Source of the DNA: Promethearchaeota archaeon
GTDB taxonomy: Archaea > Asgardarchaeota > Lokiarchaeia > Sigyniarchaeales > SOKP01
NCBI GenBank assembly: GCA_019058245.1
Contig: JAHPZJ010000023.1
Location: forward strand, 1-64,000
Direction: 5' to 3'
Length of the DNA: 64,000 nucleotides
In this document: positions 1 to 16,785 of the stretch, piece by piece
Numbering within the stretch: the first letter of the stretch is position 1
Layout of the letters: each line of letters begins with the position of its first letter
Made by a program: the position numbers and the translations under genes
The notes under the pieces: generated by a model
Databases searched by the model: none
What the model saw: the letters and a program-made list of their open reading frames with translations, nothing else
Told to the model about the DNA's origin: nothing

Positions 1-63
1 TAATTTTTTTCTTTAAATATAGTCAACCCTAACATAGCATAATCAGTTTATAATTGTTAAATT

Positions 64-1218: not shown

Positions 1219-1242
1219 ATCATAAGAAAATCCTAAAATCCC

Positions 1243-2364
1243 TTAGCTGAAAGAAAATTTATAATGATCCAGTTTCAGTTCTTTTTGCATGGTTTTAATA
1301 TCATTCTGTAAACTTTTATTGAGTGGAATGCCTTTACTTTTTCTTATGTCTTCCATGATTTTTTCTTTTTCTCCAGCAGTATAAATTCTTTCAGCATTAG
1401 GTATTTTTCTGGATCCTCGTAAATCTCTCATTATATTTCCAGCTGTTTGTTTAAATGACTCTAGCCCTATAAAGTTATCAATATTTATTGCTAAAAAGAA
1501 ATGTCCTACCTTTAATCGTTTTTGACCATCCTCAACTATTCCAAGGGTATCTCTTAAATAAATACCCTCTTGTAATGCAGCAGACAGAAGTTCAACAATA
1601 GTAGCATAGCCATACCCTTTATATCCTGCTGTTTCCTCACCCTTGCCTCCTAAAGGCAATAAAGATGCTTTCCGTTCTAACATTTTTTCTAAAATTTTAT
1701 TAGGATCCCTCATAATATCACCATTTTCATCAATCACAGTATTTTCAGGAACCATTTTATTAATTCGTGCATTTAATTCAACTTTTCCTCTTTGAATGAT
1801 TGATGTGGCACAATCAAGAACAAATGGAAAATCTTCGTCAGTAGGAGCCCCTACTGTTAGAGGATTGGTACCTAACATTGGTTCGCTTCCAAATGTGGGA
1901 GGAATAGAAGGTCTTGCATTGGTTACAGTTAATCCTATCATCCCTTCCTTAATAGCCATAAGTGAATAATATCCCGCAATTCCAAAATGAGTAGAATTCC
2001 TAACCGCTACAGCACCTAACCCATATTTCTTAGCTTTCTTAATTGCCATTTTCATTGCTTTATAAGCTATTACGTGCCCCATTCCACAATTACCGTCTAA
2101 AAGAGCAGTTGTTGGACCTTCTTTTATAATGTCAATTTTTGTTATTGGATTATAAAGCCCTTCCTTGATACGATCATAATACATTTTACATCTCTGAATA
2201 CCATGTGACTCAATCCCTCTTAAATCGGATGTAATCAGAACATCAGCTATAATACTAGCATCTTCTTTAGGTACGCCAAGACCTACAAAGACGTCTTTTA
2301 TAAAATTCTCAAGTGTACTAGCATCTATATTTATAATATCTTCTGACATTTTAGAACCTACCAA
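1243..2364 (-). CDS. Ldh_2 family (type 2 malate/L-lactate) oxidoreductase
   Basis: DLRGIESHG, RNSTHFGIAGYY, GTNPL, GYKGYG motifs; true start may be ATG at 2349. Confidence 0.9.
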   Translation of the reverse strand: MVGSKMSEDIINIDASTLENFIKDVFVGLGVPKEDASIIADVLITSDLRGIESHGIQRCKMYYDRIKEGLYNPITKIDIIKEGPTTALLDGNCGMGHVIAYKAMKMAIKKAKKYGLGAVAVRNSTHFGIAGYYSLMAIKEGMIGLTVTNARPSIPPTFGSEPMLGTNPLTVGAPTDEDFPFVLDCATSIIQRGKVELNARINKMVPENTVIDENGDIMRDPNKILEKMLERKASLLPLGGKGEETAGYKGYGYATIVELLSAALQEGIYLRDTLGIVEDGQKRLKVGHFFLAINIDNFIGLESFKQTAGNIMRDLRGSRKIPNAERIYTAGEKEKIMEDIRKSKGIPLNKSLQNDIKTMQKELKLDHYKFSFS

Positions 2365-2601
2365 TTATTTATTCATTTTAAAAAATTTTTAAAGTATTAA
2401 ATAAAAATAATTTTTTCAACCAAATTTTAATTCTTGTTATGTGATGAATAGTAATTTTCACTATTTCATAAGGTTAAAAAAATATTCTCCTTATAAAATA
2501 TGTTACACATATTATTTTGGTATATATATTATCAATTGTATTAAAAATTGTAATATTTAACAATTAATTAAATGATAATTATATATAAGTTTTAGAGTAT
2601 C

Positions 2602-3456
2602 ATGAATAAAAAAGAAAAGTTAAAATGCCCACTTTGTAGTACTAAATTCATTCCAAGAACATTCTATCCAGAGGAAGCCACATTTTCTTCTAATGGTAAA
2701 TTATTATCAGGTTTCAATGGGTATATCAGTTCTAGTGGTGTGAAACCAGCAGAAGTTATTCTGAGTTCTTGGATTACCTATTGCCCTAATTGCAATTATA
2801 TTATGAAATTTGTAAAGGAAATTGTGAAAAAAGAGAAAATTCAATCTCAGACTTTTACTAAAAAAGATATTAATCAAAAATATAACAGCTATTATTTTGG
2901 GTTTCCATTTGAAGATTATTCTCAATACTTAACTGGAGTTATCCATGAGATTAGAAAAGAAATAGAAGCCTCTCTTAAAGGTTTAGATTTAAAAATTTGG
3001 AAAAATATGTATGAAATAAATGATACATTTAAACTTTTAGTAAGATTTTATGCGAATTTAGAAAATTATTGTAATTCTCAACTTGAGAATAAAGAAGATA
3101 AACCATTAGCCACAAAAATAAAAATGCTGAACCTTAATCCAGAGTTACAAAATGCTTTAATAGAGCTAAATGATTTGAGAAATAAAACCATTCAAGGTAT
3201 TTATGAACTCTCTTCTGAGGATAAAGAAAAGGTCAATAATTCAGTTGTCAATTTTACTTTAAGTTTATTAGAGAAACATATAAAACCATTAATCGATGAA
3301 AAGAAATTTAAAGAAAAATATAGCTATGTGGATATCAAAGATCTTAATTTTGAAATCAAGATCTTTCTAAATACCTTTCTAAATAGTATTTTTAATCATG
3401 GAAAATCAGCCAACCAAGAAATAACCTCGTTTCTTGAGCAAATTATTACTAATTAA
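2602..3456 (+). CDS. Zn-ribbon plus HEPN/DUF4145-like helical domain protein
   Basis: CPLC...CPNC pairs; LNDLRNKTIQG resembles the HEPN RNxxxH site lacking His. Confidence 0.4.
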   Translation: MNKKEKLKCPLCSTKFIPRTFYPEEATFSSNGKLLSGFNGYISSSGVKPAEVILSSWITYCPNCNYIMKFVKEIVKKEKIQSQTFTKKDINQKYNSYYFGFPFEDYSQYLTGVIHEIRKEIEASLKGLDLKIWKNMYEINDTFKLLVRFYANLENYCNSQLENKEDKPLATKIKMLNLNPELQNALIELNDLRNKTIQGIYELSSEDKEKVNNSVVNFTLSLLEKHIKPLIDEKKFKEKYSYVDIKDLNFEIKIFLNTFLNSIFNHGKSANQEITSFLEQIITN

Positions 3457-3561
3457 TTATTAAAATTATTATCATTTCTACCTAAATTTTTAGTTACTTT
3501 TATCGATGTATCATCACCATGTTATAGTTTTATTTGAATCTTTAGCTCATATCTTTAATTC

Positions 3562-3726
3562 ATGATTCTAAATGATTTAAAAGCAAAGGTTAAAGGAAAA
3601 TTCTATAAAGAGATTACAATCGAGGATGATGGGGAAGATCTTGTCTATATTTTTCCAGACACGAAAGAATTTCTCTCAATTATTAGAAGAAAAGAGATTA
3701 AAAAAAATCTTCATTCTTCAGATTGA
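3562..3726 (+). CDS. small hypothetical protein (54 aa, below ORF-track cutoff)
   Basis: ATG 3562 to TGA 3726: MILNDLKAKVKGKFYKEITIEDDGEDLVYIFPDTKEF... Confidence 0.4.
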   Translation: MILNDLKAKVKGKFYKEITIEDDGEDLVYIFPDTKEFLSIIRRKEIKKNLHSSD

Positions 3727-3796
3727 TTTTAATAGATACTAAAAAAGAAACTCAATTATCTCACTGAAAATATAAATTTAAATTTTATAGCACATT

Positions 3797-4111
3797 ACTA
3801 TAGTTGGACACCTTGGGCAATGTCTGAAGCCCCTTTAGCTGGGTGGACCACAAAATGCTCATAGTGGAAATTGCCTGAATTCAGATTTTATGAATAATAT
3901 TAACCAGTCTTATGTTCCGTCGAAGCATTCCCCATAATGGTAGGTATCAGAGTAGTATTTTTTGTAGGAAAAGTATAAACTCGTAATTAGAAAACCGGCT
4001 AGGCTCGGGAGAGAGCAACCGTAACTATAGGTATTTACGCTTTATGGTAAGGGTGTGGAGGGCCATGAGATCTTTTGGTCATAATATTAGGATTATAATC
4101 GAGGTTCAGGT
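3797..4111 (+). ncRNA. ffs: archaeal signal recognition particle (7S) RNA
   Basis: GC-richer non-coding island. Helix 8 CGG-CUAGG-CUC-GGGA-GAG-AGCAA-CCG (3996-4021), helix 6 with GUAG tetraloop (~3950-3982), helix 5 CCUGAAUUC.../...GAGGUUCAGG, followed by a T-run. Confidence 0.9.
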
Positions 4112-4126
4112 TTTTTAAACCTAATT

Positions 4127-4594
4127 TTATTCATCATTTTTGTCTTTTGATTCTTTTATTAATTGGTATATACAATTTTTATGATTTGTATCTAAAATGC
4201 ATTCTATCGTTTTGATATTGTATTTAATTTCAGGTTGAGCAATAGTTATAATTGCCATAGTATATGGTTTGCAGATTGTAGCTCGAACAAGTTCACCTCG
4301 TTCTGGGTTAGGTTTTCCCCCAATTGGACAGAAATTTGAAGAATGGCGTACTGTAATTTCTATAGTATTATCATTTATGCTTTTTATTTGAGTTTTAGCT
4401 TTAAGGGCACTGTATATTTGTTTTAGAGTATTTTCTAATCCATTGATTCCTCGTTTTTTTAATAATTTACCTAATTTAGCACCTAAAGCAGTAGAGATCG
4501 ATTTAGGTAGATTAACGCCACCAATATCAATCATCTCGTTAATATATGCTTGGAAGAATTTTAAAGCATCCTTGTTTTTTGACATCTTTGTCAA
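4127..4594 (-). CDS. V4R/methanogen-output-domain-like Cys-containing protein (paralog 1)
   Basis: FCPIGG, ICxPYT, C-x7-C; strongly similar to the neighbouring ORF. Confidence 0.55.
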   Translation of the reverse strand: MTKMSKNKDALKFFQAYINEMIDIGGVNLPKSISTALGAKLGKLLKKRGINGLENTLKQIYSALKAKTQIKSINDNTIEITVRHSSNFCPIGGKPNPERGELVRATICKPYTMAIITIAQPEIKYNIKTIECILDTNHKNCIYQLIKESKDKNDE

Positions 4595-4790
4595 GGTATA
4601 ATTTCTTATTAGGCTAAAAGATAGATAAATCTCAATGTTAAAGTATTTAAGACTTGTTATAAGAATTATTTATTTAACAATAATTCATATCTTCATAATG
4701 AGTTGATTTTTTTTCATAAACTATGCTTTAATTTAGATTATAAAAAAGGTTTTACTTCAAAAAAAAGGATTCATAATAATTATTTGATAT

Positions 4791-5243
4791 TTAGCCATTG
4801 GTATCTTTTCTTTTAAGTTTTAAAATATAATGACAACTTTTATTATTATTTTGCAGAATGCATTTTAATATTTCTGACTTAGTTATGAATTGGGGAAATA
4901 ATTCATTCAAGAATCCTCTTGTATAAGGAATACAGATATTCTCTTGAAAGATTGGCGCTCTAGAGGGATTATAAGAACCTCCAATTGGACAAAATTTCTT
5001 AGGATATTTTATGATTACTTCATAAGTATTCTCATCTATTTGATTTATTATTGGTTTTCCATTTAGAACAGAATAGACTTGTTTTAATGTATTTCCGATA
5101 TTTAGAGATACTCCCTTTTTTTTATAATATTTACCTAGTTTTGCACCAGATTTTGTGGAAATTGCTTTTGGTAAATTTTCTCCACCTATATCAATCATTT
5201 CTTTAATATATGCTTGAAAAAATTTCAGAGCGTCTTTATTGAT
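4791..5243 (-). CDS. V4R/methanogen-output-domain-like protein (paralog 2), probable ATC start
   Basis: Homology to paralog 1 (NKDALKFFQAYI) extends 15 codons upstream of the track ATG to ATC 5243, preceded by GAGGTGA. Confidence 0.6.
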   Translation of the reverse strand: MNKDALKFFQAYIKEMIDIGGENLPKAISTKSGAKLGKYYKKKGVSLNIGNTLKQVYSVLNGKPIINQIDENTYEVIIKYPKKFCPIGGSYNPSRAPIFQENICIPYTRGFLNELFPQFITKSEILKCILQNNNKSCHYILKLKRKDTNG

Positions 5244-5377
5244 AAAATCACCTCTTAGAAAAAATTATTATTTTGTTATTTAAAATATAATTTCCTTATA
5301 CCGTAATTTACAAGAGAAAATCATAAATACAGATATATAAATCTATCCATTAATGTCAAATTTAAGCAAAAAAGAAA

Positions 5378-5983
5378 TTATAAGATTTCATTTTCTAAAG
5401 TAAATCTTAGTAATCGATCTTTATCTTCCTCGGCATAATCTATGCCAATTCTCTTGTTTAATATGATTTTTTTATTTGATGATTTCTCTCCTTGTGTAAA
5501 ATATAACTTTGAATCAGATTTACACGAATCTTTTCCATTAAACTTTTCTTTAGTGATATTTAAAGCATTACAGAGCTTACTTGGTCCATCTACTAAATTT
5601 TTATAATTTTTCCCAATCTTAGCATTACGATTTTCAATCATTAATTCAATTCCACTGACAGGAAACAGTTGTCGAATTAAAATAGCACAAGGAATTTCTT
5701 TTGGTTCTGTAATAACGTTTAAACAATAATATAATCCATATATCATATAAATATAAAGAGTTCCTGGTTTCATATACATTGTTTTTGTTCTTTCTGTTTT
5801 TTTATAATTATAGGAATGACAAGCTTTATCATTTGGTCCAAGATAGGCTTCTACTTCAATAATTTTACCAATCATTTGTCTTCCTCGTTCTTTTCGTATC
5901 AAATATTTGCCTAATAACTCTTTCGCAATGAATTCTGTGTTCTTAGTAAAAAAATCCCTATTTAAACGTTTCAATTCAGTCAT
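5378..5983 (-). CDS. mpg: DNA-3-methyladenine glycosylase (AAG/MPG family)
   Basis: IIEVEAYLG, YIYMIYGLYYCLNV, GPSKLC, RIGI. Confidence 0.95.
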   Translation of the reverse strand: MTELKRLNRDFFTKNTEFIAKELLGKYLIRKERGRQMIGKIIEVEAYLGPNDKACHSYNYKKTERTKTMYMKPGTLYIYMIYGLYYCLNVITEPKEIPCAILIRQLFPVSGIELMIENRNAKIGKNYKNLVDGPSKLCNALNITKEKFNGKDSCKSDSKLYFTQGEKSSNKKIILNKRIGIDYAEEDKDRLLRFTLENEIL

Positions 5984-6042
5984 AAATTTTAACTTAAATA
6001 TTTTTTAGATGTTCTAAAAAATTCAGAATCTTATCTTATATT

Positions 6043-6861
6043 TTAATTAAATACATCTTTTAGAAATAATTCTAACTTAGCATTACAAGCAATAAACGGA
6101 AATTTTTCATTGATGGATAATGGTCTTTTAATTTCCGCCCCTTCAAGAGAAAAAATCCTTCCTCCAGCTTCTTTTAAAATTAGTATACCCGCTGCTACAT
6201 CGACTAATCGATTGCTTTTTCTCATGTTAATAAAAGCATCCATACTGCCTTTAGCTATTTGACATAAAGATAATGCGCTACTACCCAGTATTCGTATTTT
6301 ATAAAATTTTCTTATTATTGGATTTAACAAATTTAAATTCTTCATCAAATTTTTCTTTGGTAAATTTATCTCAAAAAAGCATTCTTGTGGAATTTCATAA
6401 TCAGAAACATAGATCCTTGAATCATTCAAATAAGCTCCTTTTCCCTTTTCTGCCGAGTAAATATCTTTTGTAGTCAAATCAAGTACTACAGCTTTTTCTA
6501 TATCATTTATATTATCTCCAATCGCATAAGCAATAGAGACTGAACAATAAGGGATACCTCTAACCGCATTATTTGATCCATCAATGGGATCAACAATTAG
6601 TACCTTTTTTTTTTTCCTTGCTATCTCTTCATCTCCGATATATTTCTCTCCAATTTCTTCACTTATCAATAATATATCAGTATTTTTATCTTCTAATAAT
6701 TTAATAAGAGTATTTTCAGCAACAAGATCAATATACATAGAAACGTCTCCTCCTGCACCTCTCTTAGATTTTTTCGCTGCTTGTTTTAATCCTACTAGTG
6801 GTTTTATTGCATCATATACAGTTATAACAAGCTGCTTTAAAAAATTTATATTATATTCCAT
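6043..6861 (-). CDS. suhB: inositol monophosphatase / FBPase family
   Basis: SEEIG, VDPIDGSNN, RILGSSAL, DVAAG. Confidence 0.9.
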   Translation of the reverse strand: MEYNINFLKQLVITVYDAIKPLVGLKQAAKKSKRGAGGDVSMYIDLVAENTLIKLLEDKNTDILLISEEIGEKYIGDEEIARKKKKVLIVDPIDGSNNAVRGIPYCSVSIAYAIGDNINDIEKAVVLDLTTKDIYSAEKGKGAYLNDSRIYVSDYEIPQECFFEINLPKKNLMKNLNLLNPIIRKFYKIRILGSSALSLCQIAKGSMDAFINMRKSNRLVDVAAGILILKEAGGRIFSLEGAEIKRPLSINEKFPFIACNAKLELFLKDVFN

Positions 6862-6916
6862 TAAAATCAGATTTTATTTTTAATTACAGAAGAAAATCCA
6901 AATAAATAATTAATTT

Positions 6917-8176
6917 TTATGAAGAATTTCCATAATTCAATTCATAGTCTATTATTTCACTTAATTCATTATAAGGTGTTATTACGATTTGAATAAAACC
7001 TTTTTCAAAAATTAAATTAGGTCCTATCTTTAATTCCTTCTTTAAATAAATTTTATCTATTCTCATTGAGATTAGCCAATCTGAAATTATAATCCCTTTT
7101 CTCTTCTCTTCATTTATATATTGATTATTAAAGATATTATAATCTAATAATTGTCTCTCTTTTTCATTTTCCTTAATTTCAAATAAAGCAAAATAAAGAG
7201 CTTCACCAAAATGATCGGATAATATAGAATTTAACCCATTATTATCGATTAATGGAACCGCCACCTTAGTTATAGGATTCGCTTGAGTTTGAAATAAGAT
7301 TAATACTTTGAAAATTTGTGGATATTTTTCTTTTATTTTGACAATTAATTGATTCTTTAACGATTGGATTTGAATTAGAGAAAGATCTTTGTTTAAACTA
7401 ATACTTATTTCTAAAAATATATATTTTCCATAGGCTCTTATATTTAAACTCTCTATTTCTTTAATTTTTGGGAAATTCTTTATCATATTATTAAGTTCAG
7501 TTCTTTTATCAAAGTCTATTACCGCGTCAAGTAAAACTTTTGTAGAGTTTAAGAAAATATCAAAACCACCTTTAATTATAAAAATAGTAATAATTAGTCC
7601 GATAAATGAATCCAAAAAATAAAGATTAAAAATGTAGCCTATAAATCCCACTAAAACAGATAATGATATAACATTGTCATAGAGTTTTTCACTTGCCTCT
7701 GACTTAATTACGGGTGAATTAGTTTTTTTTCCTACTTTTTTTAAATAGTAAGTTATGATTAAAGATACTATGAGAGAAATTATTAAAAAGATTAAAGATA
7801 AGTTTGATATTTTTATAATTCTAAAATTGCCCTGGGTAAAATTAATGATATCTTGAAAAGTTCCCAGAATAATAATATAGGCTGTATAAAAAATGAATAA
7901 TGATATGAATAAGCTTATGATATTTTCAATTTTATAATAACCATAAGGAAATTTCTCATTTGGTTTCTTTCTGGAATATAGAAACCCTATAAAAGCTGCA
8001 AATACCATAACTATATCTGTAAGTGTATCAAAAGCATCAGCTCGAAGTGCCATACTATGAGTTAGAAATGAAAACATTAATTTTAAAATAAAAAAGACTA
8101 TATTAACAATTAACAAAAAGAAGTTTAAGAATATTGGATTTTCATAAAATCTTGGATTATAATCACTATCTATCAT
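6917..8176 (-). CDS. cation diffusion facilitator with C-terminal NifB/NifX-like domain
   Basis: ADAFDTLTD, FPYGYYKIE, TM helices; C-terminal VAVP...HFGEALYF. Confidence 0.85.
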   Translation of the reverse strand: MIDSDYNPRFYENPIFLNFFLLIVNIVFFILKLMFSFLTHSMALRADAFDTLTDIVMVFAAFIGFLYSRKKPNEKFPYGYYKIENIISLFISLFIFYTAYIIILGTFQDIINFTQGNFRIIKISNLSLIFLIISLIVSLIITYYLKKVGKKTNSPVIKSEASEKLYDNVISLSVLVGFIGYIFNLYFLDSFIGLIITIFIIKGGFDIFLNSTKVLLDAVIDFDKRTELNNMIKNFPKIKEIESLNIRAYGKYIFLEISISLNKDLSLIQIQSLKNQLIVKIKEKYPQIFKVLILFQTQANPITKVAVPLIDNNGLNSILSDHFGEALYFALFEIKENEKERQLLDYNIFNNQYINEEKRKGIIISDWLISMRIDKIYLKKELKIGPNLIFEKGFIQIVITPYNELSEIIDYELNYGNSS

Positions 8177-8178
8177 TT

Positions 8179-8904
8179 TTAAATTTTATGTCTTTCAATG
8201 ATCCATTTATCTACAATAAATTTTTGAAGTTTATTTTTTTGATTAACTTCATATTCAGAGTGTACAGTGCTCTTTGGTATCCAAAACTCCTCTCCGGATT
8301 GCAAAGTAATTAATAAAGCTTTAGGACTTTCGACTTTTATTTCAGCTTTAATTTCAACTGTGCTTCTTGATGCACTATATTCTGTAGTTTCTACTATGTG
8401 TAAACCATCTCTGGCAGTTATATGCTCAGCAAAAAGCCCAAATTCAGCTTCTTCATCAACCTCTCCTTTTTGCATCGTTTTGGTTTCAAAAGTTCCACTT
8501 GTAGCAAATTCAATTTTTTCATTAAGGATATGATCCAAAAGTAATGCCATCATATTTAGATTTGGAAATCGAAGTTTCTTAATATACTCACCTATTTTAA
8601 CACGTAAGACTTGACGAGATTCATCTTCCCATCCAACATATATCTCTGTTTTGCGATCTTGAAAAATATGATATCCTCTCCAATTTGCATTTCTCCTATA
8701 AAGAACTTCTATAATGCATATAATTTCCTCAATTGATAAACGTACTGTTTTTCCTTCTCCCTCAGAAATTTTTTCCCAGGACCCATCATTCTTTCGGTTT
8801 ATACAACTTAAGAATATATAAGGAACTTGCTTAGATGGACTACTAACTCTTAAGCTTTTTTTTTGCCCATAAAAGGTTTTAATATGAAAATCAGCCAATT
8901 TCAC
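8179..8904 (-). CDS. conserved hypothetical two-domain protein
   Basis: 241 aa; C-terminal ESPKALLI...FWIPKS beta domain. Confidence 0.6.
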   Translation of the reverse strand: MKLADFHIKTFYGQKKSLRVSSPSKQVPYIFLSCINRKNDGSWEKISEGEGKTVRLSIEEIICIIEVLYRRNANWRGYHIFQDRKTEIYVGWEDESRQVLRVKIGEYIKKLRFPNLNMMALLLDHILNEKIEFATSGTFETKTMQKGEVDEEAEFGLFAEHITARDGLHIVETTEYSASRSTVEIKAEIKVESPKALLITLQSGEEFWIPKSTVHSEYEVNQKNKLQKFIVDKWIIERHKI

Positions 8905-9079
8905 TCACTTCAAAAAAATATTTCAAGTTGACTCATGAGTATTCACAAAAAAAATAATTATTTATTAATTTAAATCTGAGTAATTAAACTGTTGTTTTTT
9001 AAAAATTTCTACAAAAGAGAAAAGGTTTTATAAAAATTGCTGTTATTTAATAGTAAATATCTTTTTCAAGCGAAATAAT

Positions 9080-9841
9080 ATGATTAAGAAAAATGAAGAT
9101 AATTCTGGTATAAAAGATAAGAAAAGAGCTGTAATAAGTAGCTCTGGAGATTTAATAGAATTACAGGAACATGTTAGTGCTTCTGGCTCTACTAACATCT
9201 CAGGGGGAAAAATTGATAAATCTATTCGAATCTCAGGCTCAGGAATAATTAATGGAGATTTAGAATGTAATGGTCTGACTTCAAACGGAATAATAAAAGG
9301 ATCTGGGAATTTAACTGTACATGGGGATGTTAGTAGTTCGGGTTCATTTAATATTGCTGGATTTCTTACTGGAGAGGAAGATGTTGATTTTTCAGGTTCA
9401 ACAGAGATAGGAAATTTGATAAATATTCAAGGATCTTTAGTAGTATCGGGAAGTTTTAAAGCAGGACATTTTGTCCGAGGAGATAAAGGAATTTCTCTTT
9501 CTGGTTCTTCAGAAATAAATGGGAATTTATCTTCTGAGAAAAAAATTACGATCGATGGAACCACTTATATTGAAGGGAATGTTGTAGCAGAGGATGTCCT
9601 TTTTGGAGTTTCAAGAGAAAAGATAAAAAAACAACATTATAGAATCCAAGGGAGTATACTGGCTAAGAATAATGTAGATATTATCCGATCCCATATAGAA
9701 GGAGATATTAAAGGTAAAGAAGTAGCAATCGGTCAAGGATCTGAAATTCTAGGTAACATTTATTATGTAGATAATATTGAAATCGATAAAAAAGCAAAAT
9801 TGGCTAATGAGCCAACTCAAATCGATTTAGGGGAATTATAG
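9080..9841 (+). CDS. bactofilin-like polymer-forming beta-helix protein
   Basis: repeated (I/V)SGSxxIxG units along the whole length. Confidence 0.75.
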   Translation: MIKKNEDNSGIKDKKRAVISSSGDLIELQEHVSASGSTNISGGKIDKSIRISGSGIINGDLECNGLTSNGIIKGSGNLTVHGDVSSSGSFNIAGFLTGEEDVDFSGSTEIGNLINIQGSLVVSGSFKAGHFVRGDKGISLSGSSEINGNLSSEKKITIDGTTYIEGNVVAEDVLFGVSREKIKKQHYRIQGSILAKNNVDIIRSHIEGDIKGKEVAIGQGSEILGNIYYVDNIEIDKKAKLANEPTQIDLGEL

Positions 9842-9867
9842 TTAAAAGTTATTTTAAGAAAATAAGT

Positions 9868-10173
9868 TTACATTAATTCAATTTCTACTAGTACTGATTC
9901 AGGAATCTGAATTTTCATAATAAGATGCATACTTCTTTCATTAGCAATAATCTCAAAAAGACGCTTATGGATCCGCATTTCAAACTTAGCCCAAGTACTA
10001 GTACCTTGGCCACTAGGAGCCTTTAAAACTGGGACACGTAATCTTTTTGTTGGGAGAGGTATAGGACCATTCTTTCGAATCCCTTGAGAACTACATACCG
10101 CTTGCACTTGCTCGCATACTGATTGTAATGCATTTAATTGAGTAGATGACAATCGTATGCGCGCTTTTTGTAT
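9868..10173 (-). CDS. rps10: 30S ribosomal protein uS10, ATA start
   Basis: GPIPLPT, MRIHKRL; N-terminus (M)QKARIRLSST begins at ATA 10173, in-frame TAA two codons upstream, GGTGA SD. Confidence 0.95.
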   Translation of the reverse strand: MQKARIRLSSTQLNALQSVCEQVQAVCSSQGIRKNGPIPLPTKRLRVPVLKAPSGQGTSTWAKFEMRIHKRLFEIIANERSMHLIMKIQIPESVLVEIELM

Positions 10174-10439
10174 GTTTTACTCACCACGAAAATTTATTTA
10201 AAATCACGTTTGCTGTATTATCGAAATTATTCCTATTAAATAAATTTTTTTATCGAATTATAAGTGAGAATCTATTTTTAATGATTTCTATTTGTTTGAT
10301 AAAAAAGGATAAACGCACGCTCATTTTTTGTTCATAAATTAGTTTGTATTTCATAGATTTCCATAAAATTTAAAATTGAAATTTTCAATATAATAAGTGG
10401 CATTTATTCAATAAGAAAAATAAGAATAATTAAAAAATC

Positions 10440-10858
10440 ATGAAAGAGGACCCTTTTAAGTCCAGTAACGATGATTTTACATTTAGAAAAAAAAACCTAA
10501 GAAAAAAATATGCTATAATTATAGTAAGCTTCATAGTTATAATTTCAGTTGTGAGTATTCCAGTCGTCATTTATGCATATAATGCAATAAAGATGATATT
10601 TAATTACAATCCAGAACTGCCTTGTGAGGATTTACCAGATATAAAAATCGTTAGACAAGTTGTTGAAGATCACCAGGATGTTATACAGGAAATTAAAAAT
10701 TTAAATCCTGACAATATTTGGGTTTCAATTAATGAAAGATGTAATGGAAAAGGGGAATTATTTATTTATTATGATACAGTCTCTAATAAAGAAAAAATAT
10801 AGAGATTATAGGTTCTGATATGTTTTTTGGCGTACCTTATAGATTATTTAACGTGTGA
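10440..10858 (+). pseudogene. membrane-anchored hypothetical protein with 1-nt frameshift near 10800
   Basis: ORF stops at 10802, but EIIGSDMFFGVPYRLFNV continues in a shifted frame to TGA 10858. Confidence 0.55.
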
Positions 10859-10876
10859 TGTATCATTATAAAATTA

Positions 10877-11263
10877 GTGAAAATAGGTTTAAGCTTAAGT
10901 ATGATTGGTGGTACTCTATTCTTTATCTTAATATATATTTTTTTTAAACATTATTATTCCATGTGGCAATTACAAGAAGAATTATTAATTTTGTTTCTCT
11001 TTTTTCTCTTCATTAATGTGGGTGCTATAACGGGTGCATTTTTAGGATTTTTTGATAAAAGAATCGGTATTTATTTATGTTTTATTGCAGGAATCATATA
11101 TCCACTATTATGTTTCTATTATTTTTTATTAAGTCCATCTACTTTTTTTATAGGTTTTTTTGAATCTTTAATTGAATCATTTTACATTTCTATCCCAATG
11201 CTACTATTATTCACTGGTGGTTCTATTAGTTTTATAAAAATGCAATTAGAATTAAAAAAATAA
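10877..11263 (+). CDS. hypothetical membrane protein (4 TM)
   Basis: hydrophobic segments. Confidence 0.6.
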   Translation: MKIGLSLSMIGGTLFFILIYIFFKHYYSMWQLQEELLILFLFFLFINVGAITGAFLGFFDKRIGIYLCFIAGIIYPLLCFYYFLLSPSTFFIGFFESLIESFYISIPMLLLFTGGSISFIKMQLELKK

Positions 11264-11270
11264 TTTAGCA

Positions 11271-12413
11271 TTAAATGAATCCTAATAAGAATTTATTACC
11301 TAAATTCACATATTTTAAAGATTTTTTAGCTGCATCCAAACATTTTAAAGCCTGTTTACGAGTTGTAATTCCTAAATCTCGCATTTGATAATCCCCATGA
11401 AATATTAACAAACTATAAGGAATTTCTTTGTTAATAGAACTAATAAAGTTTGCAATTTGTTCCACTTCCTTATGATTTGTATAGTCTGGAACCATTAATG
11501 TACACGCACTCATCTCAGGTAAGTTTTTTCTTGTTCCAAAGTATTTTTCAGCTAAAAATTTAAAGTTATCGAGAGTTCTTTTGTTACTTACACCACATAG
11601 AGCTAAATTTAATTTTTCATTAAATGTTTTTAAATCAAACTTAATATTTCCTCCAGTTTTAATTGCAATTTGCATACACTTTTCAACCAAATCCTTATTT
11701 CCGGAACCATTCCATTCCCAACATATCCTCATTATCCTTTTTTCTCCCAATTTTCCAATTTTTTCAAGAATTTTATTTGCAAGATTTATTGAAAAAGGTA
11801 ATTGAGCTTCTGGGGTACCTCCAAAATAACATAAACAAGTAATCTTCTCATTTTTAACTATTTGATTTGCTAATGTGTGAACATCAAATAAATACCTCTT
11901 TGTAAACAATTTATGAGAGGCATTTTGACAAAAGAGACAGTCAAAAGTACAACCATATAAAAATGCAGCATAACTATATGTACCAAATTCAGGACCCTCA
12001 AAATTTGAATATTCTGGATAACCCGCTGAAGTTCCAGCAGGACAAAACCAACTATTACAACAATTTGTAGGATTAGCATCTATATACCCATGAATGTAAC
12101 CCTCTGATTTAGACGGATAAGGTAATTGACCTGAATTTTTAAGTTGAATATTTCTTAAACCACAATAACTAACATCATTTTCTGATAAAGCGCATTCATT
12201 AATACATAATTTACATTTCAATATGATATTAGGTTTTTCTGCTTTAGGTGGTTTTTCTGGCAAATTGACCAGTTGACGAACTTGTTTGTGGACGTTTAGA
12301 ATATGTGGTTTAATTTTATTCTCCCAATCTTCTTCTAAAATACATTTTCTACATACTTCTAAAATGTTAGAAACTACTCTATCAGTTTTGCCACAAAACT
12401 TACACGTTCCCAT
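11271..12413 (-). CDS. radical SAM protein (PflA/AmmeMemoRadiSam-like)
   Basis: GCTFDCLFCQN CxxxCxxC motif plus N-terminal Cys clusters. Confidence 0.9.
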   Translation of the reverse strand: MGTCKFCGKTDRVVSNILEVCRKCILEEDWENKIKPHILNVHKQVRQLVNLPEKPPKAEKPNIILKCKLCINECALSENDVSYCGLRNIQLKNSGQLPYPSKSEGYIHGYIDANPTNCCNSWFCPAGTSAGYPEYSNFEGPEFGTYSYAAFLYGCTFDCLFCQNASHKLFTKRYLFDVHTLANQIVKNEKITCLCYFGGTPEAQLPFSINLANKILEKIGKLGEKRIMRICWEWNGSGNKDLVEKCMQIAIKTGGNIKFDLKTFNEKLNLALCGVSNKRTLDNFKFLAEKYFGTRKNLPEMSACTLMVPDYTNHKEVEQIANFISSINKEIPYSLLIFHGDYQMRDLGITTRKQALKCLDAAKKSLKYVNLGNKFLLGFI

Positions 12414-12415
12414 TT

Positions 12416-13075
12416 TTACATCTTCTTCTTTAATAATAAAAAAGTTTGACCAGATTTTTGGTTTGGATTACTTTTTACCATATATCCTTCAAAATTATTA
12501 TTAATAAATGAATTATTAAACATTTTCAATTCGCTCTCATTTTGAGGATAAAATTCAATTACAATTCTTCCATTCTTCTTTAGTATTTTATGTAAATACT
12601 GTGCTGTGTCATTAAGGAGTTTAACTTTCTCCCCATATTTTTCTAATCCATAAGTTATAAAATTGTATGATGATATTGAGATAATAAAATCGATTTTATT
12701 CATTTTAAAAGGTAAATGGTTAGTATCTGCTAAAATAAATTCCAAATCATTATAACTTTTTATAAGTTTTTTTTTTTCTCTTGCCTTTAATAGCATATCA
12801 TTTAAAATATCAATTCCAATAACTCGAAAACCATTTTGAATTAAAATTTCCGATGAAAATCCTGTTCCACAGCCTAAATCCAAAATTAAAGGTGAATCTT
12901 CTGTCATTATCTCATCCTTGTTATCACCTTCTAATCTTCTATCATAAAGATATTCAATACTCTGAAGAGTAGTTTTGTTTTGGTTACGTTTCATCCATTT
13001 TGAATTATTATACTCTTCTGCCTTTTCATGTAAGTAATCCTCAGGGAATTTTGGGAGTCGATTTTTTCTTACCAT
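12416..13075 (-). CDS. Bud23/WBSCR22-like class I SAM methyltransferase
   Basis: PEDY..EKAEEY, ILDLGCGTGFS, ISISS, LKKNGRIVIEFYPQN, F.G.MV..P motifs parallel Bud23. Confidence 0.75.
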   Translation of the reverse strand: MVRKNRLPKFPEDYLHEKAEEYNNSKWMKRNQNKTTLQSIEYLYDRRLEGDNKDEIMTEDSPLILDLGCGTGFSSEILIQNGFRVIGIDILNDMLLKAREKKKLIKSYNDLEFILADTNHLPFKMNKIDFIISISSYNFITYGLEKYGEKVKLLNDTAQYLHKILKKNGRIVIEFYPQNESELKMFNNSFINNNFEGYMVKSNPNQKSGQTFLLLKKKM

Positions 13076-13215
13076 TTCTATAAAATGTTTTTCTATTCGT
13101 GATCACAAATGTCAAAAATAAGCTGATTTATATAAATAACTAAATTCAATTATATATAGAGGTTTTTATATATTCCATATAAAGACAGATAATTATTGTA
13201 AGGATTTGTACAAAA

Positions 13216-13627
13216 ATGTCATACAGGATATTAGTAGTTGATGATGAACCAGAAAAGTGAAGAACTCCTTCAACTTTGATTAGACATTGTCAACTTAACT
13301 GAAAAATTCTTAAAATTAGGGGGTTTTGAGATACTTACAAGTAATAATGCCAAGGAGGCTATGAAAATCATAGAAGAAAACTATGATAATATTGATTTAA
13401 TCTTATTAGACATAATGATGCCTGGACGATCAGGTTATAGTGTTCTTGAAGAAGTTAAGAATAATGAAAAATTTAAAGATATTCTTGTCGTTTTATTTAC
13501 TGTGAAAAGTTTTAATGAGGATGTTCAAAAAGGGAAGAAATTAGGTGCTGATGCATATATCACTAAACCATTCTCAGGTAAGGAACTCCTAGAAAGATTA
13601 AAAGAAATATTAAATATAAAGAATTAA
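13216..13627 (+). CDS. CheY-like response regulator, split by a 31-nt intron (exons 13216-13252 and 13284-13627; 126 aa)
   Basis: Spliced product MSYRILVVDDEP-DIVNLTEKFLKLGGFE...LLDIMMP...FT...GADAYITKPF is a complete receiver domain. Confidence 0.88.
13253..13283 (+). other. bulge-helix-bulge mRNA intron (31 nt)
   Basis: Outer stem 13236-13246/13285-13295, central helix AACC/GATT, AGA bulges 13251-53 and 13282-84, inner hairpin; in-frame TGA and frameshift if retained. Confidence 0.85.
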
Positions 13628-13795
13628 AAAATTAAACACAGTATTAGTATTACATTAATTTTATTATCTTTTTATCAATATTAATTTATAATTTTAATTT
13701 AGATTTATTACTTATCTAAAAAAATATTAAATACTATTATATATAAGATTGAAATATTACCTTTTTTAATAAAAAATCGTGATTAAAATTGGTTT

Positions 13796-14476
13796 ATGAA
13801 GCAGAAAGTGATAAAATCCCCTTTTTTAAACAAACAATATTTTTCTGTAATTATATTAATTGCAAATATTGTTGTATTTATCTGGCAGATGTTAGATCCA
13901 ACAGGTAAGATGCATATTGAGTATGCTTTTGTTCCTTCTGAATTCTTTAAAGGTCAAAAATTATGGACCCTCTTTACCTCAATGTTCATGCATGGTGATA
14001 TTGTACATATATTTATGAATATGTGGTTTTTTTTTGTAATAACTGATAATTGCGAGCATGCAATGGGACATTGGTTATATCTAGTTACTTATTTTCTTTC
14101 CGGACTATTTGGGAGTTTACTTCATGCATTGAGTACATTAATTATTCCCGTTTGGGGACCTATTTTGGCGAAAATTCCTTCTTTAGGTGCTTCTGGAGCT
14201 ATATTCGGTTTAATGGCGGTATATGTTATACTTTATTCAGGCAATAAATTTTACATTCCTGGAACAACAGGTATGCGAAAAGTAAGTGCAGGTTATTTTA
14301 TAATAACATACTTTATTGCAGAATTAACTTATGCGATATATTCAATAATGGATCCGTTTAGTATAGGTCAAACGGCTCATTTTGCTCATGTTGGTGGATT
14401 CATAGCTGGAGCTATAATAGCGAGTATATTTAAAGCTGTAAAAGGATCATCATATAAAAAGAAACCAAAAGAATAA
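13796..14476 (+). CDS. rhomboid intramembrane serine protease
   Basis: FMHGDIVHIFMN, GASGA, AHFAHVGG. Confidence 0.95.
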   Translation: MKQKVIKSPFLNKQYFSVIILIANIVVFIWQMLDPTGKMHIEYAFVPSEFFKGQKLWTLFTSMFMHGDIVHIFMNMWFFFVITDNCEHAMGHWLYLVTYFLSGLFGSLLHALSTLIIPVWGPILAKIPSLGASGAIFGLMAVYVILYSGNKFYIPGTTGMRKVSAGYFIITYFIAELTYAIYSIMDPFSIGQTAHFAHVGGFIAGAIIASIFKAVKGSSYKKKPKE

Positions 14477-14596
14477 TTTCGTTTTCTATATTTTCTTTTT
14501 TTTTTCATAAAGTTATTTGAATAATGGGAAATTTAGAAATTTATTATTATTAACACTAATTTTATATCCAAATAGTTCGAAATTTCCACGTATAAT

Positions 14597-15208
14597 ATGA
14601 TTACTAAAATATCATTGATTTTTTTTTGGATGGTTATGATTATCGTTTTAATACATATATTCTATAGAAAATTATCATATAAAATTGAAAGAGCAGTTAA
14701 TTTTCCTGAAATTCCTCATTGGATTTATCCATTAATAATAATTTGTATTTTTGGATATATCTATATATGCTTTTTGACAATAACTTATATTTTTAATCCT
14801 ATTTTTGCATTTAATCTTTTCTTACCAATTACAATGCTAAATATAGACCTTTTAAAAGTAATAGGAGATATTTTTGTTATAATTGGGACTATTATATTTT
14901 TAATAGCATATTTTAATCTAAATTTATTAGCAGATTTAGCAGATAAATCCAACTTATCTAAATTAAAATCAACAGGAATATATGCGATATCAAGAAATCC
15001 TATTTATCTCGGATTGCATATTATAACAATCGGATTTAGTTTAATAATTCCAACATGGATAACATTCATATGTATTATCATATTCATTATTAATTTTCAT
15101 TATAGGATTAAGTTAGAAGAAAAAGAATTAGAGGAAATATTTGGAAAGGCTTATATTGATTATCGAAGAAAAGTTTTGAGATATATTGGTCGAAGGATTA
15201 GAAGTTAA
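14597..15208 (+). CDS. isoprenylcysteine carboxyl methyltransferase (ICMT/PEMT) family
   Basis: TGIYAISRNPIYLG, EEKEL...FG..Y..Y. Confidence 0.85.
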   Translation: MITKISLIFFWMVMIIVLIHIFYRKLSYKIERAVNFPEIPHWIYPLIIICIFGYIYICFLTITYIFNPIFAFNLFLPITMLNIDLLKVIGDIFVIIGTIIFLIAYFNLNLLADLADKSNLSKLKSTGIYAISRNPIYLGLHIITIGFSLIIPTWITFICIIIFIINFHYRIKLEEKELEEIFGKAYIDYRRKVLRYIGRRIRS

Positions 15209-15390
15209 ATTTTAATTTTAGCTTAAGATTAAAGGCTCGAAAGGATATAAACTATATTTAACTTGAATAAAAACTTTCTTTTTTCGCTTTTACTTCATAA
15301 AAAATACTATTTTATAATAAACTTTTTTTGATAATAAATTATATCAATAATGATTTATTTAGGAATTTAATAATTGTTAGAAAGAGAACT

Positions 15391-16785
15391 ATGAGTATGA
15401 CTCAGATCGTTGTCATAGGAATGGGCTATAAGTTCTGAGACTTCCTCAGTATTGGTTAAGTTGGTATTCCCATGGCAGCATTACTTGCTGATGTTGATGA
15501 TTTTAATGTCACCGGAATTCAGCGAAGATCACAAAGATCAGGGTGGAAAATCGATTGGCTCAATCAAGGAAAGAATCCTTTTGAAGGAGATGAACCAGGT
15601 TTAGATGAGTTAATTTCAAGAGTTGTTAAAAATGGGAAATTTAAAGTAACTGATAAGTATAATCTTGTAAATAAAGCAGATTATATTTTAATCGATGTGC
15701 AAACCCCTGTTGATGAAAATAAAATACCTAGGTATGAATCATTAATTGAAGTTTCTCGTAAAATCTCAAAACACTTAAAAAAAGGAGTAACAATCATTAT
15801 TGAATCCACAGTAGCTCCAGGTACTACTAATAATATAGTACAAACAATGTTAGAAGAAGGTAGTGGACTTAAAAGAGGTCAAGATTTTTATCTCGTATTT
15901 TCTTTTGAACGAGTTATGCCAGGAAAATTATTGGAATATATCACTGATTTTCCTAGAGTTATTGGAGGTGGTTGTAAGGAGGCAAATGAACGAGCAAAAT
16001 TCTTATATGGAAAGGTTGTTAAGAAAGAGCTTCAAGTTACAGATACTCTTACTGCAGAACTTACCAAATGTATTGAAAATTCATATAGAGATGTTAATAT
16101 AGCATTTGCTAATGAAATGGCTTTACTATGTGAAGATTTCGACAGAAATATATACGACATTGTTGAGTTTATAAATCACAGACATGATAGGATGATGCAT
16201 TATCCCGGTAGTGGAGTAGGAGGCCATTGTCTCACAAAGGATCCCTGGTTATTATTATACGGTTATGATAAATATACAGAAAAGAAAAACAAAGAGAAAA
16301 TAAAGCTTATACCAAACTCTAGAAATTTAAATGACTATATGCCCAATCATATGGTTGAATTGATGGAGGATATATTTAGAGAAGCTCATAAATTAGTAGA
16401 TAATATAAAAATTGTTCTTTTGGGAGTTTCTTATAAAGCAGATACTGATGATACACGAAATACTCCTACAGAAAATATTGTGAAAGTATTACAAGGACGA
16501 TATCACTCTCATAATATTATCTATATTGCTCATGACCCATATGTTAATGAGAGGGATTATAGGCTTACAGAACTTACGGATGACTTTAATGAAGCTGTTG
16601 ATAATGCTGATGTTCTTATCTTTGCAACAAATCATAGTGAATATTACAATATTGATTTAGATGATTTAAAAAAAAGAGTGAGGACACCTATTATCATTGA
16701 TGGTAGAAATATCTTTAACAAAAAATTACTACTAGAAAAAGGTTTTATTTATCGAAAAGTTGGAGAAGGTCCTGGAGTACTATAA
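15391..16785 (+). CDS. UDP-sugar (ManNAc/GlcNAc/glucose) dehydrogenase, split by a 30-nt intron (exons 15391-15429 and 15460-16785; 454 aa)
   Basis: Spliced N-terminus IVVIGMGY-VGIP restores the Rossmann GxGxxG; ESTVAPGT, GVGGHCLTKD, YKADTDDTRN. Confidence 0.9.
15430..15459 (+). other. bulge-helix-bulge/BHL mRNA intron (30 nt)
   Basis: Central helix GGCT/GGTT, bulges ATA 15428-30 and AAG 15458-60, inner hairpin CTGAG-ACTTC-CTCAG; contains in-frame TGA and TAA. Confidence 0.82.

What the first reader, a model, noticed from the sequence alone, without database searches (positions are those of the whole stretch)
13216..13295. tRNA-type BHB intron inside a response-regulator mRNA
Seen: ATG 13216 encodes MSYRILVVDDEP and then hits TGA, while the rest of the receiver domain (DIVNLTEKFL...) resumes in another frame 31 nt later. 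The junctions fold into a near-canonical bulge-helix-bulge: an 11-bp exon-exon stem (AGTTGATGATG/CATTGTCAACT), two 3-nt AGA bulges, a 4-bp helix AACC/GATT with one C-A mismatch, and an intron hairpin AAAGT-GAAG/CTTC-A-ACTTT. Established: archaeal EndA cuts after the second nucleotide of each bulge and RtcB ligates. Applying that rule removes 13253-13283 and gives ...GAA CCA GAC ATT..., an intact 126-aa protein. The well-known archaeal mRNA intron example is crenarchaeal cbf5. Inference: a signalling protein whose expression needs mRNA splicing in an Asgard-like archaeon.
Basis: partly seen in the sequence, partly recalled or inferred. Interest (0 to 1): 0.95.

Follow-up and report, generated by a model that had tools for sequence, protein, structure and literature searches.

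The report
tRNA-type intron splits Asgard signalling gene
A 31-base insert that breaks a small signalling-protein gene of an Asgard archaeon has exactly the RNA shape cut by the tRNA-splicing enzymes, and three related species carry such inserts at the same spot while about forty do not, so this messenger RNA is very probably spliced, which has been shown so far for only one archaeal protein-coding sequence.

Summary
ATG 13216 gives 12 receiver-domain codons and then a stop. The rest of the domain resumes out of frame. Removing 13253-13283 gives a 126-aa CheY-like protein.

The junctions form a canonical bulge-helix-bulge: an 11-bp exon helix, a 4-bp helix AACC:GATT with one C-A mismatch, two AGA bulges and an inner hairpin.

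New evidence here:
- Of 54 genomes of the genus, about 40 carry the uninterrupted gene and their sequence equals the predicted spliced product.
- Three other species carry a 30-31-nt insert at the same site, in two unrelated sequence types. Each fits the cut rule in the one register that restores the frame.
- The inner helix covaries between the types.
- Exons are under strong purifying selection (dN/dS 0.01-0.07).
- Independent assemblies from two studies contain the insert.
- The genome encodes two EndA paralogues and RtcB.

No RNA data were available, so splicing itself is inferred (confidence about 0.8).

The same genome has similar 30-31-nt inserts in at least three other genes. One is in this window at 15430-15459.

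Printed precedent for a coding sequence is the crenarchaeal cbf5 intron. This is therefore a new member of a known kind, in a new phylum. The scan had already noted a like intron on other DNA (e1-5604475).

The parts
13163..13174 (+). A/T-rich TATA-like box about 45 nt upstream of the ATG of exon 1 (putative promoter)
   Evidence: Read directly from the sequence. The same block is kept in the closest relatives G024 and G052 upstream of their uninterrupted genes. That it is a promoter is inference only.
13216..13252 (+). Exon 1: 12 codons (MSYRILVVDDEP) plus the first base of the split Asp codon
   Evidence: It is identical in protein to the N-terminus of the uninterrupted G052 gene. It supplies Response_reg profile positions 1-10.
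13236..13246 (+). Outer helix h, 5' strand (exon 1)
   Evidence: It pairs with 13285-13295 over 11 bp. It is 100% paired in all four intron-bearing species.
13247..13250 (+). Central helix H, 5' strand (AACC, exon 1)
   Evidence: It faces GATT 13278-13281 with 3 of 4 pairs. The helix is perfect (AACC:GGTT) in G053 and G022.
13251..13253 (+). 5' bulge AGA; predicted cut between 13252 and 13253
   Evidence: The cut rule is from PMC2738675.
13253..13283 (+). 31-nt BHB intron (contains the in-frame TGA 13258-13260)
   Evidence: It is absent from about 40 orthologues. It is present with 0 differences in independent contigs of runs X4, X5 and X6.
13254..13277 (+). Inner helix h' with 5-nt loop (intron hairpin)
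   Evidence: Six of its 9 pairs change on both sides between the two intron types.
13278..13281 (+). Central helix H, 3' strand (GATT, intron)
13282..13284 (+). 3' bulge AGA; predicted cut between 13283 and 13284
13285..13295 (+). Outer helix h, 3' strand (exon 2)
13284..13627 (+). Exon 2: last two bases of the Asp codon, 113 codons of the receiver domain, and stop TAA
   Evidence: P0001. Pfam PF00072 E 6.5e-20, profile positions 11-110. dN/dS is 0.012-0.07 against relatives.
15430..15459 (+). Second 30-nt insert of the same kind, splitting GMGY|VGIP (GxGxxG motif) of a nucleotide-sugar dehydrogenase gene. The BHB is relaxed: H is GGCT:GGTT, and the outer helix is offset.
   Evidence: All 29 genus orthologues examined are uninterrupted, and removing the insert gives exactly their arrangement.

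Best explanation
The 31 nt at 13253-13283 are an archaeal bulge-helix-bulge intron inside the coding sequence of a stand-alone CheY-like response regulator of an Asgard archaeon. In the transcript, exon 1 and exon 2 pair over 11 bp. The last four exon-1 bases before the bulge (AACC) pair with four intron bases (GATT). The rest of the intron forms a hairpin. This presents two 3-nt bulges on opposite strands, 4 bp apart.

The tRNA-splicing endonuclease EndA (two paralogues in this genome, probably a heterotetramer) cuts after the second base of each bulge. RtcB then joins the exons and probably circularises the intron. The mature mRNA encodes a 126-aa receiver domain. Without splicing, translation stops after 14 codons and the acidic DD pocket is separated from the rest of the domain.

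Shown here: the structure, its exact register, its conservation and covariation across species, the intact exons, the enzymes, and the reality of the DNA. Inferred: the cleavage and ligation themselves.

The patchy spread of two intron types suggests that introns come and go at this site, by precise loss or by transfer with short exon flanks through recombination between species.
For: (1) Anatomy and register.

(2) About 40 same-genus orthologues are uninterrupted and read ..DDEPDIVN.., which is exactly the predicted spliced product. The uninterrupted G024 protein covers Pfam Response_reg 1-111.

(3) Three further species have a 30-31-nt insert at the very same site. G053 has a type like G000 (25 of 31 bases identical, H perfect). 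G022 and G067 have an unrelated type. In all four, the BHB cut rule gives the one register that restores the frame. For G022 and G053 the minimum-energy fold itself shows H with 3-nt bulges.

(4) Pair counts: 93.8% of cells are paired, against 23-46% when partners are slid. h is 100% paired. Six of 9 h' pairs have changes on both sides.

(5) Helix h is 11/11 in all four intron alleles. It averages 9.0/11 in 28 uninterrupted alleles, and none of those is 11/11.

(6) Purifying selection on exon 2: dN/dS is 0.012 (G000-G052, dS 0.42), 0.041 (G000-G024) and 0.07 (G000-G053), as in uninterrupted pairs. The introns themselves have diverged (6 of 31 and 11 of 30 differences), so they are not brand new.

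(7) Independent contigs from two studies contain the insert unchanged.

(8) Two EndA-domain genes and one RtcB are present.

(9) The same rule recovers the 37/38 intron of a tRNA-Ser of this genome.

(10) The same genome has like inserts in a dehydrogenase gene, RNase HII and Elf1.
Against: - There is no RNA evidence of any kind, because no RNA run was available.
- H has a C-A mismatch in G000 and a G-A mismatch in G067.
- Helix h is partly given for free by the protein sequence: the VDD and IVN codons are reverse complements. Twelve of 28 uninterrupted alleles already have 10 of 11 pairs, so the long stem is weaker evidence than it looks.
- The closest relatives (G052, G024) lack the intron. 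The G000 copy could therefore be recent, and for G000 alone the lack of decay says less.
- My genome-wide BHB-plus-ORF scan showed no excess over shifted-cut controls, so such introns are few.
- The EndA subunit architecture is inferred only from the presence of two paralogues.
Confidence: 0.8

Rival explanations
1. The insert is a plain lesion. A small hairpin-forming insertion has killed the gene, which is a young pseudogene, and the BHB-like shape is a coincidence.
For: The closest relatives G052 and G024 lack the insert, so it may be recent in G000. The outer helix exists anyway because of the VDD/IVN codon symmetry. There are no RNA data.
Against: Four species carry inserts of two unrelated sequences at the same site. 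Each fits the BHB rule in the only frame-restoring register, where the chance rate is about 1e-4 per site and length. The inner helix covaries. dN/dS is 0.01-0.07 in all interrupted lineages, while the introns themselves have diverged. A second essential-looking gene 2 kb away has the same kind of insert and no other damage.
Confidence: 0.08
2. The insert is not removed. A shortened protein is made from an internal start in exon 2 (for example ATG 13361, 88 aa), and exon 1 is a leftover.
For: An ATG-initiated ORF 13361-13627 exists. Selection on exon 2 alone would also give a low dN/dS.
Against: Such a product lacks beta-1 and the two acidic residues of the phosphorylation pocket, as well as helix 1. 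Pfam needs residues from exon 1 for profile positions 1-10. Exon 1 is conserved in protein and keeps the upstream TATA-like and ribosome-binding-like blocks shared with uninterrupted genes. The codons between 13286 and 13360 are as conserved as the rest.
Confidence: 0.05
3. Translational bypassing: ribosomes hop over the 31 nt, as over the 50-nt gap of phage T4 gene 60.
For: A stop lies shortly after the break and a hairpin sits in the gap. In G000 the triplet AGA is repeated at both borders.
Against: There are no matching take-off and landing codons in frame. The AGA repeat is absent in G022 (bulges AGT and TAA). What is conserved across the four species is the BHB geometry, not a hop signal.
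Confidence: 0.02
4. Assembly or sequencing artefact.
For: The genome is a metagenome-assembled genome (31 contigs, 76% complete).
Against: Contigs of runs X4 and X5 (one study) and X6 (another study) span the insert with 0 differences. Contigs of a co-occurring relative lack exactly 31 nt there. Three other assemblies have inserts at the same site.
Confidence: 0.01

Closest known systems
BHB intron in the cbf5 (pseudouridine synthase) pre-mRNA of Crenarchaeota (Watanabe 2002; Yoshinari 2006; Yokobori 2009, PMC2738675)
   Same: A short intron sits inside a protein-coding sequence and is cut by EndA between bulge residues 2 and 3. The host has a hetero-oligomeric endonuclease. Distribution among relatives is patchy, with gain and loss.
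   Different: A different phylum (Asgard) and a different gene (a CheY-like receiver). The motif here is the canonical hBHBh', whereas most cbf5 introns are relaxed. Two unrelated intron sequences occupy the same site in different species. The intron is present in only 4 of about 45 species. Splicing is experimentally shown for cbf5 and not here.
BHB introns of archaeal tRNA genes, e.g. tRNA-Ser(CGA) of this genome (C28:265995-266101, minus strand)
   Same: Same geometry and cut rule: helix, 4-bp H, 3-nt bulge and helix on each strand. Similar size (22 nt there, 31 nt here). Presumably the same enzymes.
   Different: [quoted passage not shown] The product is an mRNA, so the cut must keep the reading frame.
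BHB intron in the 5' UTR of HVO_1309 mRNA of Haloferax volcanii (Schwarz 2020, PMC7714728)
   Same: An mRNA is a substrate of the splicing endonuclease.
   Different: That intron lies in the untranslated leader and does not interrupt the reading frame.
Unconventional splicing of HAC1/XBP1 mRNA in eukaryotes (IRE1 cut, tRNA ligase/RtcB joining; own knowledge, not tested here)
   Same: A short intron (26 nt in XBP1) whose removal shifts the frame. Cuts fall in small structured loops. Joining is by the tRNA ligase.
   Different: The nuclease is IRE1, not the tRNA endonuclease, and the splicing is stress-regulated. No regulation is known here.

Membership tests
Archaeal BHB (EndA-type) intron | [quoted passage not shown] | tested here: met
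   The bulges are 13251-13253 and 13282-13284. H is AACC:GATT with one C-A mismatch. H is perfect in G053 and G022.
Archaeal BHB (EndA-type) intron | Flanking helices h (exon-exon) and h' (intron) | tested here: met
   h is 11 bp. h' is 9 bp with one bulged base. h is 100% paired and h' 89% paired over four species.
Archaeal BHB (EndA-type) intron | Cutting between bulge residues 2 and 3 yields the functional product | tested here: met
   Removing 13253-13283 gives EP|DI in frame, identical in arrangement to about 40 uninterrupted orthologues. The rule is checked on a tRNA of this genome and against PMC2738675.
Archaeal BHB (EndA-type) intron | Host encodes the splicing endonuclease and an RNA ligase | tested here: met
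   Two PF01974 genes (C28:126271-126495, C20:60077-60325) and RtcB (C25:55340-56647).
Archaeal BHB (EndA-type) intron | Spliced RNA and excised (circular) intron exist in the cell | not testable with these tools
   No RNA run holding this DNA was available.
Response regulator receiver domain (PF00072) | Full (beta-alpha)5 receiver with the acidic pair, the phospho-acceptor Asp, and the Thr and Lys | tested here: met
   Exon 2 matches profile positions 11-110. Exon 1 supplies ..VVDDEP. The uninterrupted G024 orthologue matches 1-111, E 1.7e-25, and aligns with solved receivers end to end.
Self-splicing group I / group II introns and other described RNA families | Ribozyme core or another Rfam model | tested here: not met
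   No Rfam match up to E 1 in 12900-15700. 31 nt is far too short for a ribozyme core.
Multi-copy mobile element (MITE-like) | Further copies elsewhere in the genome or genus | tested here: not met
   The intron core is unique in G000. In 54 genomes, both intron types occur only at this locus. The single extra hit in G042 lies antisense in an intact ORF and is a chance match.

The most novel reading that the evidence does not exclude
The response-regulator intron is one of a set of uniform 30-34-nt BHB micro-introns scattered over protein-coding genes of this Asgard genus. I read them in the receiver gene, a nucleotide-sugar dehydrogenase, RNase HII and Elf1. Earlier readers also noted cdhA, an ABC ATPase and a Rab-like GTPase. 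They mostly lie near the 5' ends of genes. They are gained, lost and passed between species together with short exon flanks. On this reading, mRNA splicing by the tRNA-splicing machinery is a regular step of gene expression in close relatives of eukaryotes, and possibly a point of control like HAC1/XBP1.
Probability: 0.4. Interest if true: 0.9.

Novelty: new member of a known kind. Interest (0 to 1): 0.8.

Why it matters
Papers I could search name a single archaeal coding sequence with a BHB intron, which is crenarchaeal cbf5. They also name one intron in a 5' UTR (PMC7714728). A recent preprint on Asgard introns deals with tRNA genes only.

A canonical BHB intron in an ordinary signalling gene of an Asgard archaeon, together with like inserts in other genes of the same genome, would have three consequences:
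- Frame-restoring mRNA splicing by EndA and RtcB is not a crenarchaeal oddity.
- Gene callers mis-annotate such genes as fragments.
- The closest prokaryotic relatives of eukaryotes tolerate, gain and lose introns in protein genes.

The four alleles (two intron types, and about 40 empty sites) form a natural series. It can be used to test how such introns arise, since the exon sequence VDD..IVN already forms the outer helix, and how they spread.

Tried and rejected
(1) Genome-wide de novo census. I scanned both strands for hBHBh' motifs (34,690 hits). I then asked whether the canonical cut fuses open frames more often than cuts shifted by 1-3 nt. At every setting it did not. The method is too noisy in a 29% GC genome, and it says only that such introns are few.

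(2) RNA evidence. No RNA holder was listed for this DNA, so expression and splicing could not be examined.

(3) Exact-pattern scans. The scan of metagenome contigs for the exon-intron junction found nothing. The scan of genome contigs found only the G053 contig.

(4) The extra genus hit in G042 is a chance match, antisense in an intact ORF.

(5) ARAGORN intron calls in this genome are mostly unreliable because many tRNAs are heavily interrupted. Only tRNA-Ser(CGA) served as a clean control.

(6) My first tree of the neighbouring gene was built from a translation one base out of frame. I discarded it and redid it in frame.

(7) Aligning 400 kb of G024 contig C7 to G000 gave 168 kb of alignment. 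It showed no further 20-45-nt insert in G000 and four in G024, which I did not follow. The two inserts within 2.2 kb in this window are therefore not typical of the whole genome.

The uninterrupted G024 orthologue was used by reference instead.

Full report
WHAT IS THERE.
The + strand reads ATG 13216, then MSYRILVVDDEPEK, then TGA. One frame over, from 13286, an open frame of 113 codons runs to TAA 13625-13627 (P0001). Pfam Response_reg matches it at E 6.5e-20, but only from profile position 11. The missing first ten positions hold strand beta-1 and the two acidic residues of the phosphorylation pocket. They are what the 12 upstream codons encode.

Removing 13253-13283 (31 nt) joins ..GAA CCA G to AC ATT GTC.. 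and gives a 126-aa stand-alone receiver protein. Its neighbours are a methyltransferase and a radical-SAM gene on the minus strand and a rhomboid protease gene downstream.

THE FOLD.
- 13236-13246 pairs with 13285-13295 (11 bp).
- AACC 13247-13250 faces GATT 13278-13281 (one C-A mismatch).
- AGA 13251-13253 and AGA 13282-13284 are unpaired.
- 13254-13277 is a 9-bp hairpin with one bulged A.

RNAfold finds both long helices around a 7x7 interior loop. The energy is -18.5 kcal/mol, against -9.65 +/- 2.5 for shuffles.

I checked the strand order of the motif, because it is easy to get wrong. With a tRNA intron at 37/38, each strand must read, 5' to 3', helix, then the 4-nt H, then the 3-nt bulge, then helix. 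This is the order seen here. As a control, the same rule applied to tRNA-Ser(CGA) of this genome (C28, minus strand) returns a 22-nt intron exactly between positions 37 and 38. The cut between bulge residues 2 and 3 is the rule used for the cbf5 introns (PMC2738675).

THE DNA IS REAL.
Contigs of three further public runs from two studies span the insert with no difference. Lower-depth contigs of a co-occurring relative lack exactly 31 nt there and read EPDIVHL. The intron core occurs once in the genome.

COMPARISON WITH RELATIVES.
The genome (3.09 Mb, 29% GC, 31 contigs) belongs to a genus with 54 genomes held. Relatives are titled Promethearchaeota or Hermodarchaeota MAGs.

The orthologous gene is found in most of them at 83-99% protein identity. 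About 40 are uninterrupted and read ..(I/V)VDDEPDIVN... The uninterrupted G024 protein is a complete receiver, Pfam 1-111, and aligns with solved receivers end to end.

Three other species are interrupted at the very same point, after the first base of the Asp codon:
- G053 has a 31-nt insert, 25 of 31 bases identical to that of G000, with H perfect (AACC:GGTT).
- G022 and G067 have 30-nt inserts that are related to each other (19 of 30) but not to the first type.

My BHB routine finds, in each of the four, a motif with h of 11 bp and H of 3-4 pairs at the one register that gives CCAG|AYAT. For G022 the minimum-energy fold is a textbook BHB.

On the four-way alignment A1, 93.8% of cells are paired. 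With partners slid by 1-3 columns the figure is 23-46%. h is paired in every cell, and 6 of the 9 h' pairs have changes on both sides. Four sequences in two types are few, and kin are not independent. Still, the structure rather than the sequence is what the two types share.

THE GENE IS ALIVE.
Nei-Gojobori dN/dS on exon 2 is 0.012 for G000-G052 (dS 0.42), 0.041 for G000-G024, 0.07 for G000-G053 and 0.02-0.03 for the other interrupted species against uninterrupted neighbours. This is the same as between uninterrupted genes. The introns have themselves diverged (6 of 31 and 11 of 30), so interruption has lasted for a measurable time without decay of the exons.

Helix h is complete (11/11) in all four intron alleles. 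Twenty-eight uninterrupted alleles average 9.0/11 and none is complete. The closest relatives of G000 have 8/11, with a mismatch next to H.

A caution applies here. The codons of VDD and IVN are reverse complements of each other, so much of h is given by the protein. The site looks pre-adapted for a BHB. That may explain why two intron types sit at one site.

HISTORY.
In a tree of the neighbouring dehydrogenase gene (440 columns), three placements stand out:
- G000 groups with uninterrupted G024 and G052 (SH-aLRT 99).
- G053 lies in another supported clade, together with G067 and its uninterrupted sisters G018 and G062.
- G022 lies in a third clade.

Each intron type thus sits in two separated lineages. 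The short exon-2 tree agrees for G000.

Within the gene, G000 differs from G052 at 5 of the first 30 exon-2 bases, against 1-3 per 30 elsewhere. It differs from G053 at only 1 of those 30, against 3-8 elsewhere. This fits transfer of the intron with short exon flanks by recombination. It also fits selection for helix h. I cannot separate the two, and many precise losses remain possible.

Neither intron type occurs anywhere else in the 54 genomes, so this is not a multi-copy element.

MACHINERY.
The genome has two EndA-domain genes of about 200 codons and one RtcB. Two paralogues are what the broad-specificity heterotetramer needs. That enzyme type is the one linked to cbf5 splicing (PMC2738675), and it is reported as common in Asgard genomes (bioRxiv 10.64898/2026.10.13.758758). 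The subunit architecture is inferred, not shown.

NOT ALONE.
Notes of earlier readers of this scan led me to look further.
- In this window, 15430-15459 is a 30-nt insert splitting GMGY|VGIP of a nucleotide-sugar dehydrogenase. All 29 orthologues examined are uninterrupted, and removal gives exactly their sequence arrangement. Its BHB is relaxed, because the outer helix is offset.
- On contig C25, a 30-nt insert (92012-92041) splits DEAGR|G of RNase HII.
- Also on C25, a 31-nt insert (73704-73734, minus strand) splits the first CPEC knuckle of Elf1.

All of these are 30-31 nt and lie within the first 13-27 codons.

Such inserts are nevertheless rare. The window aligns with G024 over 48.6 kb and shows only these two. 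A further 168 kb of alignment shows none in G000. My de novo scan found no statistical excess.

WHAT IS KNOWN.
The searchable literature names cbf5 as the only archaeal coding sequence with a BHB intron, plus one intron in a 5' UTR of Haloferax (PMC7714728; further searches). The recent preprint on Asgard introns treats tRNA genes only. No Rfam family matches. A follow-up agent of this scan reached the same reading for a 31-nt receiver-gene intron on another genome (e1-5604475), probably the G053 allele that I found independently.

VERDICT.
It is a new member of a known kind (an EndA-type intron in a pre-mRNA), in a new phylum and a new gene, with an unusually informative set of alleles.

Noticed in passing
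window 15430-15459 (+): A second 30-nt BHB-like insert splits the GxGxxG motif (GMGY|VGIP) of a nucleotide-sugar dehydrogenase gene (exon 1 from ATG 15392, exon 2 to 16785). Only G000 has it. All 29 genus orthologues examined are uninterrupted.
   Followed up: yes
G000 contig C25:92012-92041 (+) and C25:73704-73734 (-): A 30-nt insert sits inside the DEAGRG motif of RNase HII, with an in-frame TAA. A 31-nt insert sits inside the first CPEC zinc knuckle of Elf1. Removal restores the motifs. I did not compare these with relatives.
   Followed up: partly
window 13237-13245 with 13286-13294, and the same codons in loci L023-L051: The codons for VDD and for IVN are reverse complements. The receiver gene therefore forms most of the outer helix even where there is no intron (10 of 11 pairs in 12 of 28 uninterrupted alleles). 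The site looks pre-adapted for a BHB intron.
   Followed up: partly
window 13253, window 15430, C25:92012, C25:73734: All four inserts I read lie within the first 13-27 codons of their genes and are 30-31 nt long. This hints at a possible 5' bias and a uniform size, and it is untested.
   Followed up: no
G024 contig C7 near 233237 and 314151 (loci L188, L192): G024 has 30-nt and 29-nt inserts relative to G000 inside well-aligned sequence. They could be introns of tRNA or protein genes in that species.
   Followed up: no
window 13828 (+), inside the called rhomboid ORF 13796-14476: Contigs of runs X4, X5 and X6 all lack 4 nt here relative to the window. The start of the rhomboid gene, as called from ATG 13796, may therefore be wrong or may vary between strains.
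   Followed up: no
whole genome G000: ARAGORN finds only 19 tRNA genes in 3.09 Mb, most with introns and several with doubtful calls. This fits the heavy interruption of tRNA genes reported for some Asgard archaea.
   Followed up: no
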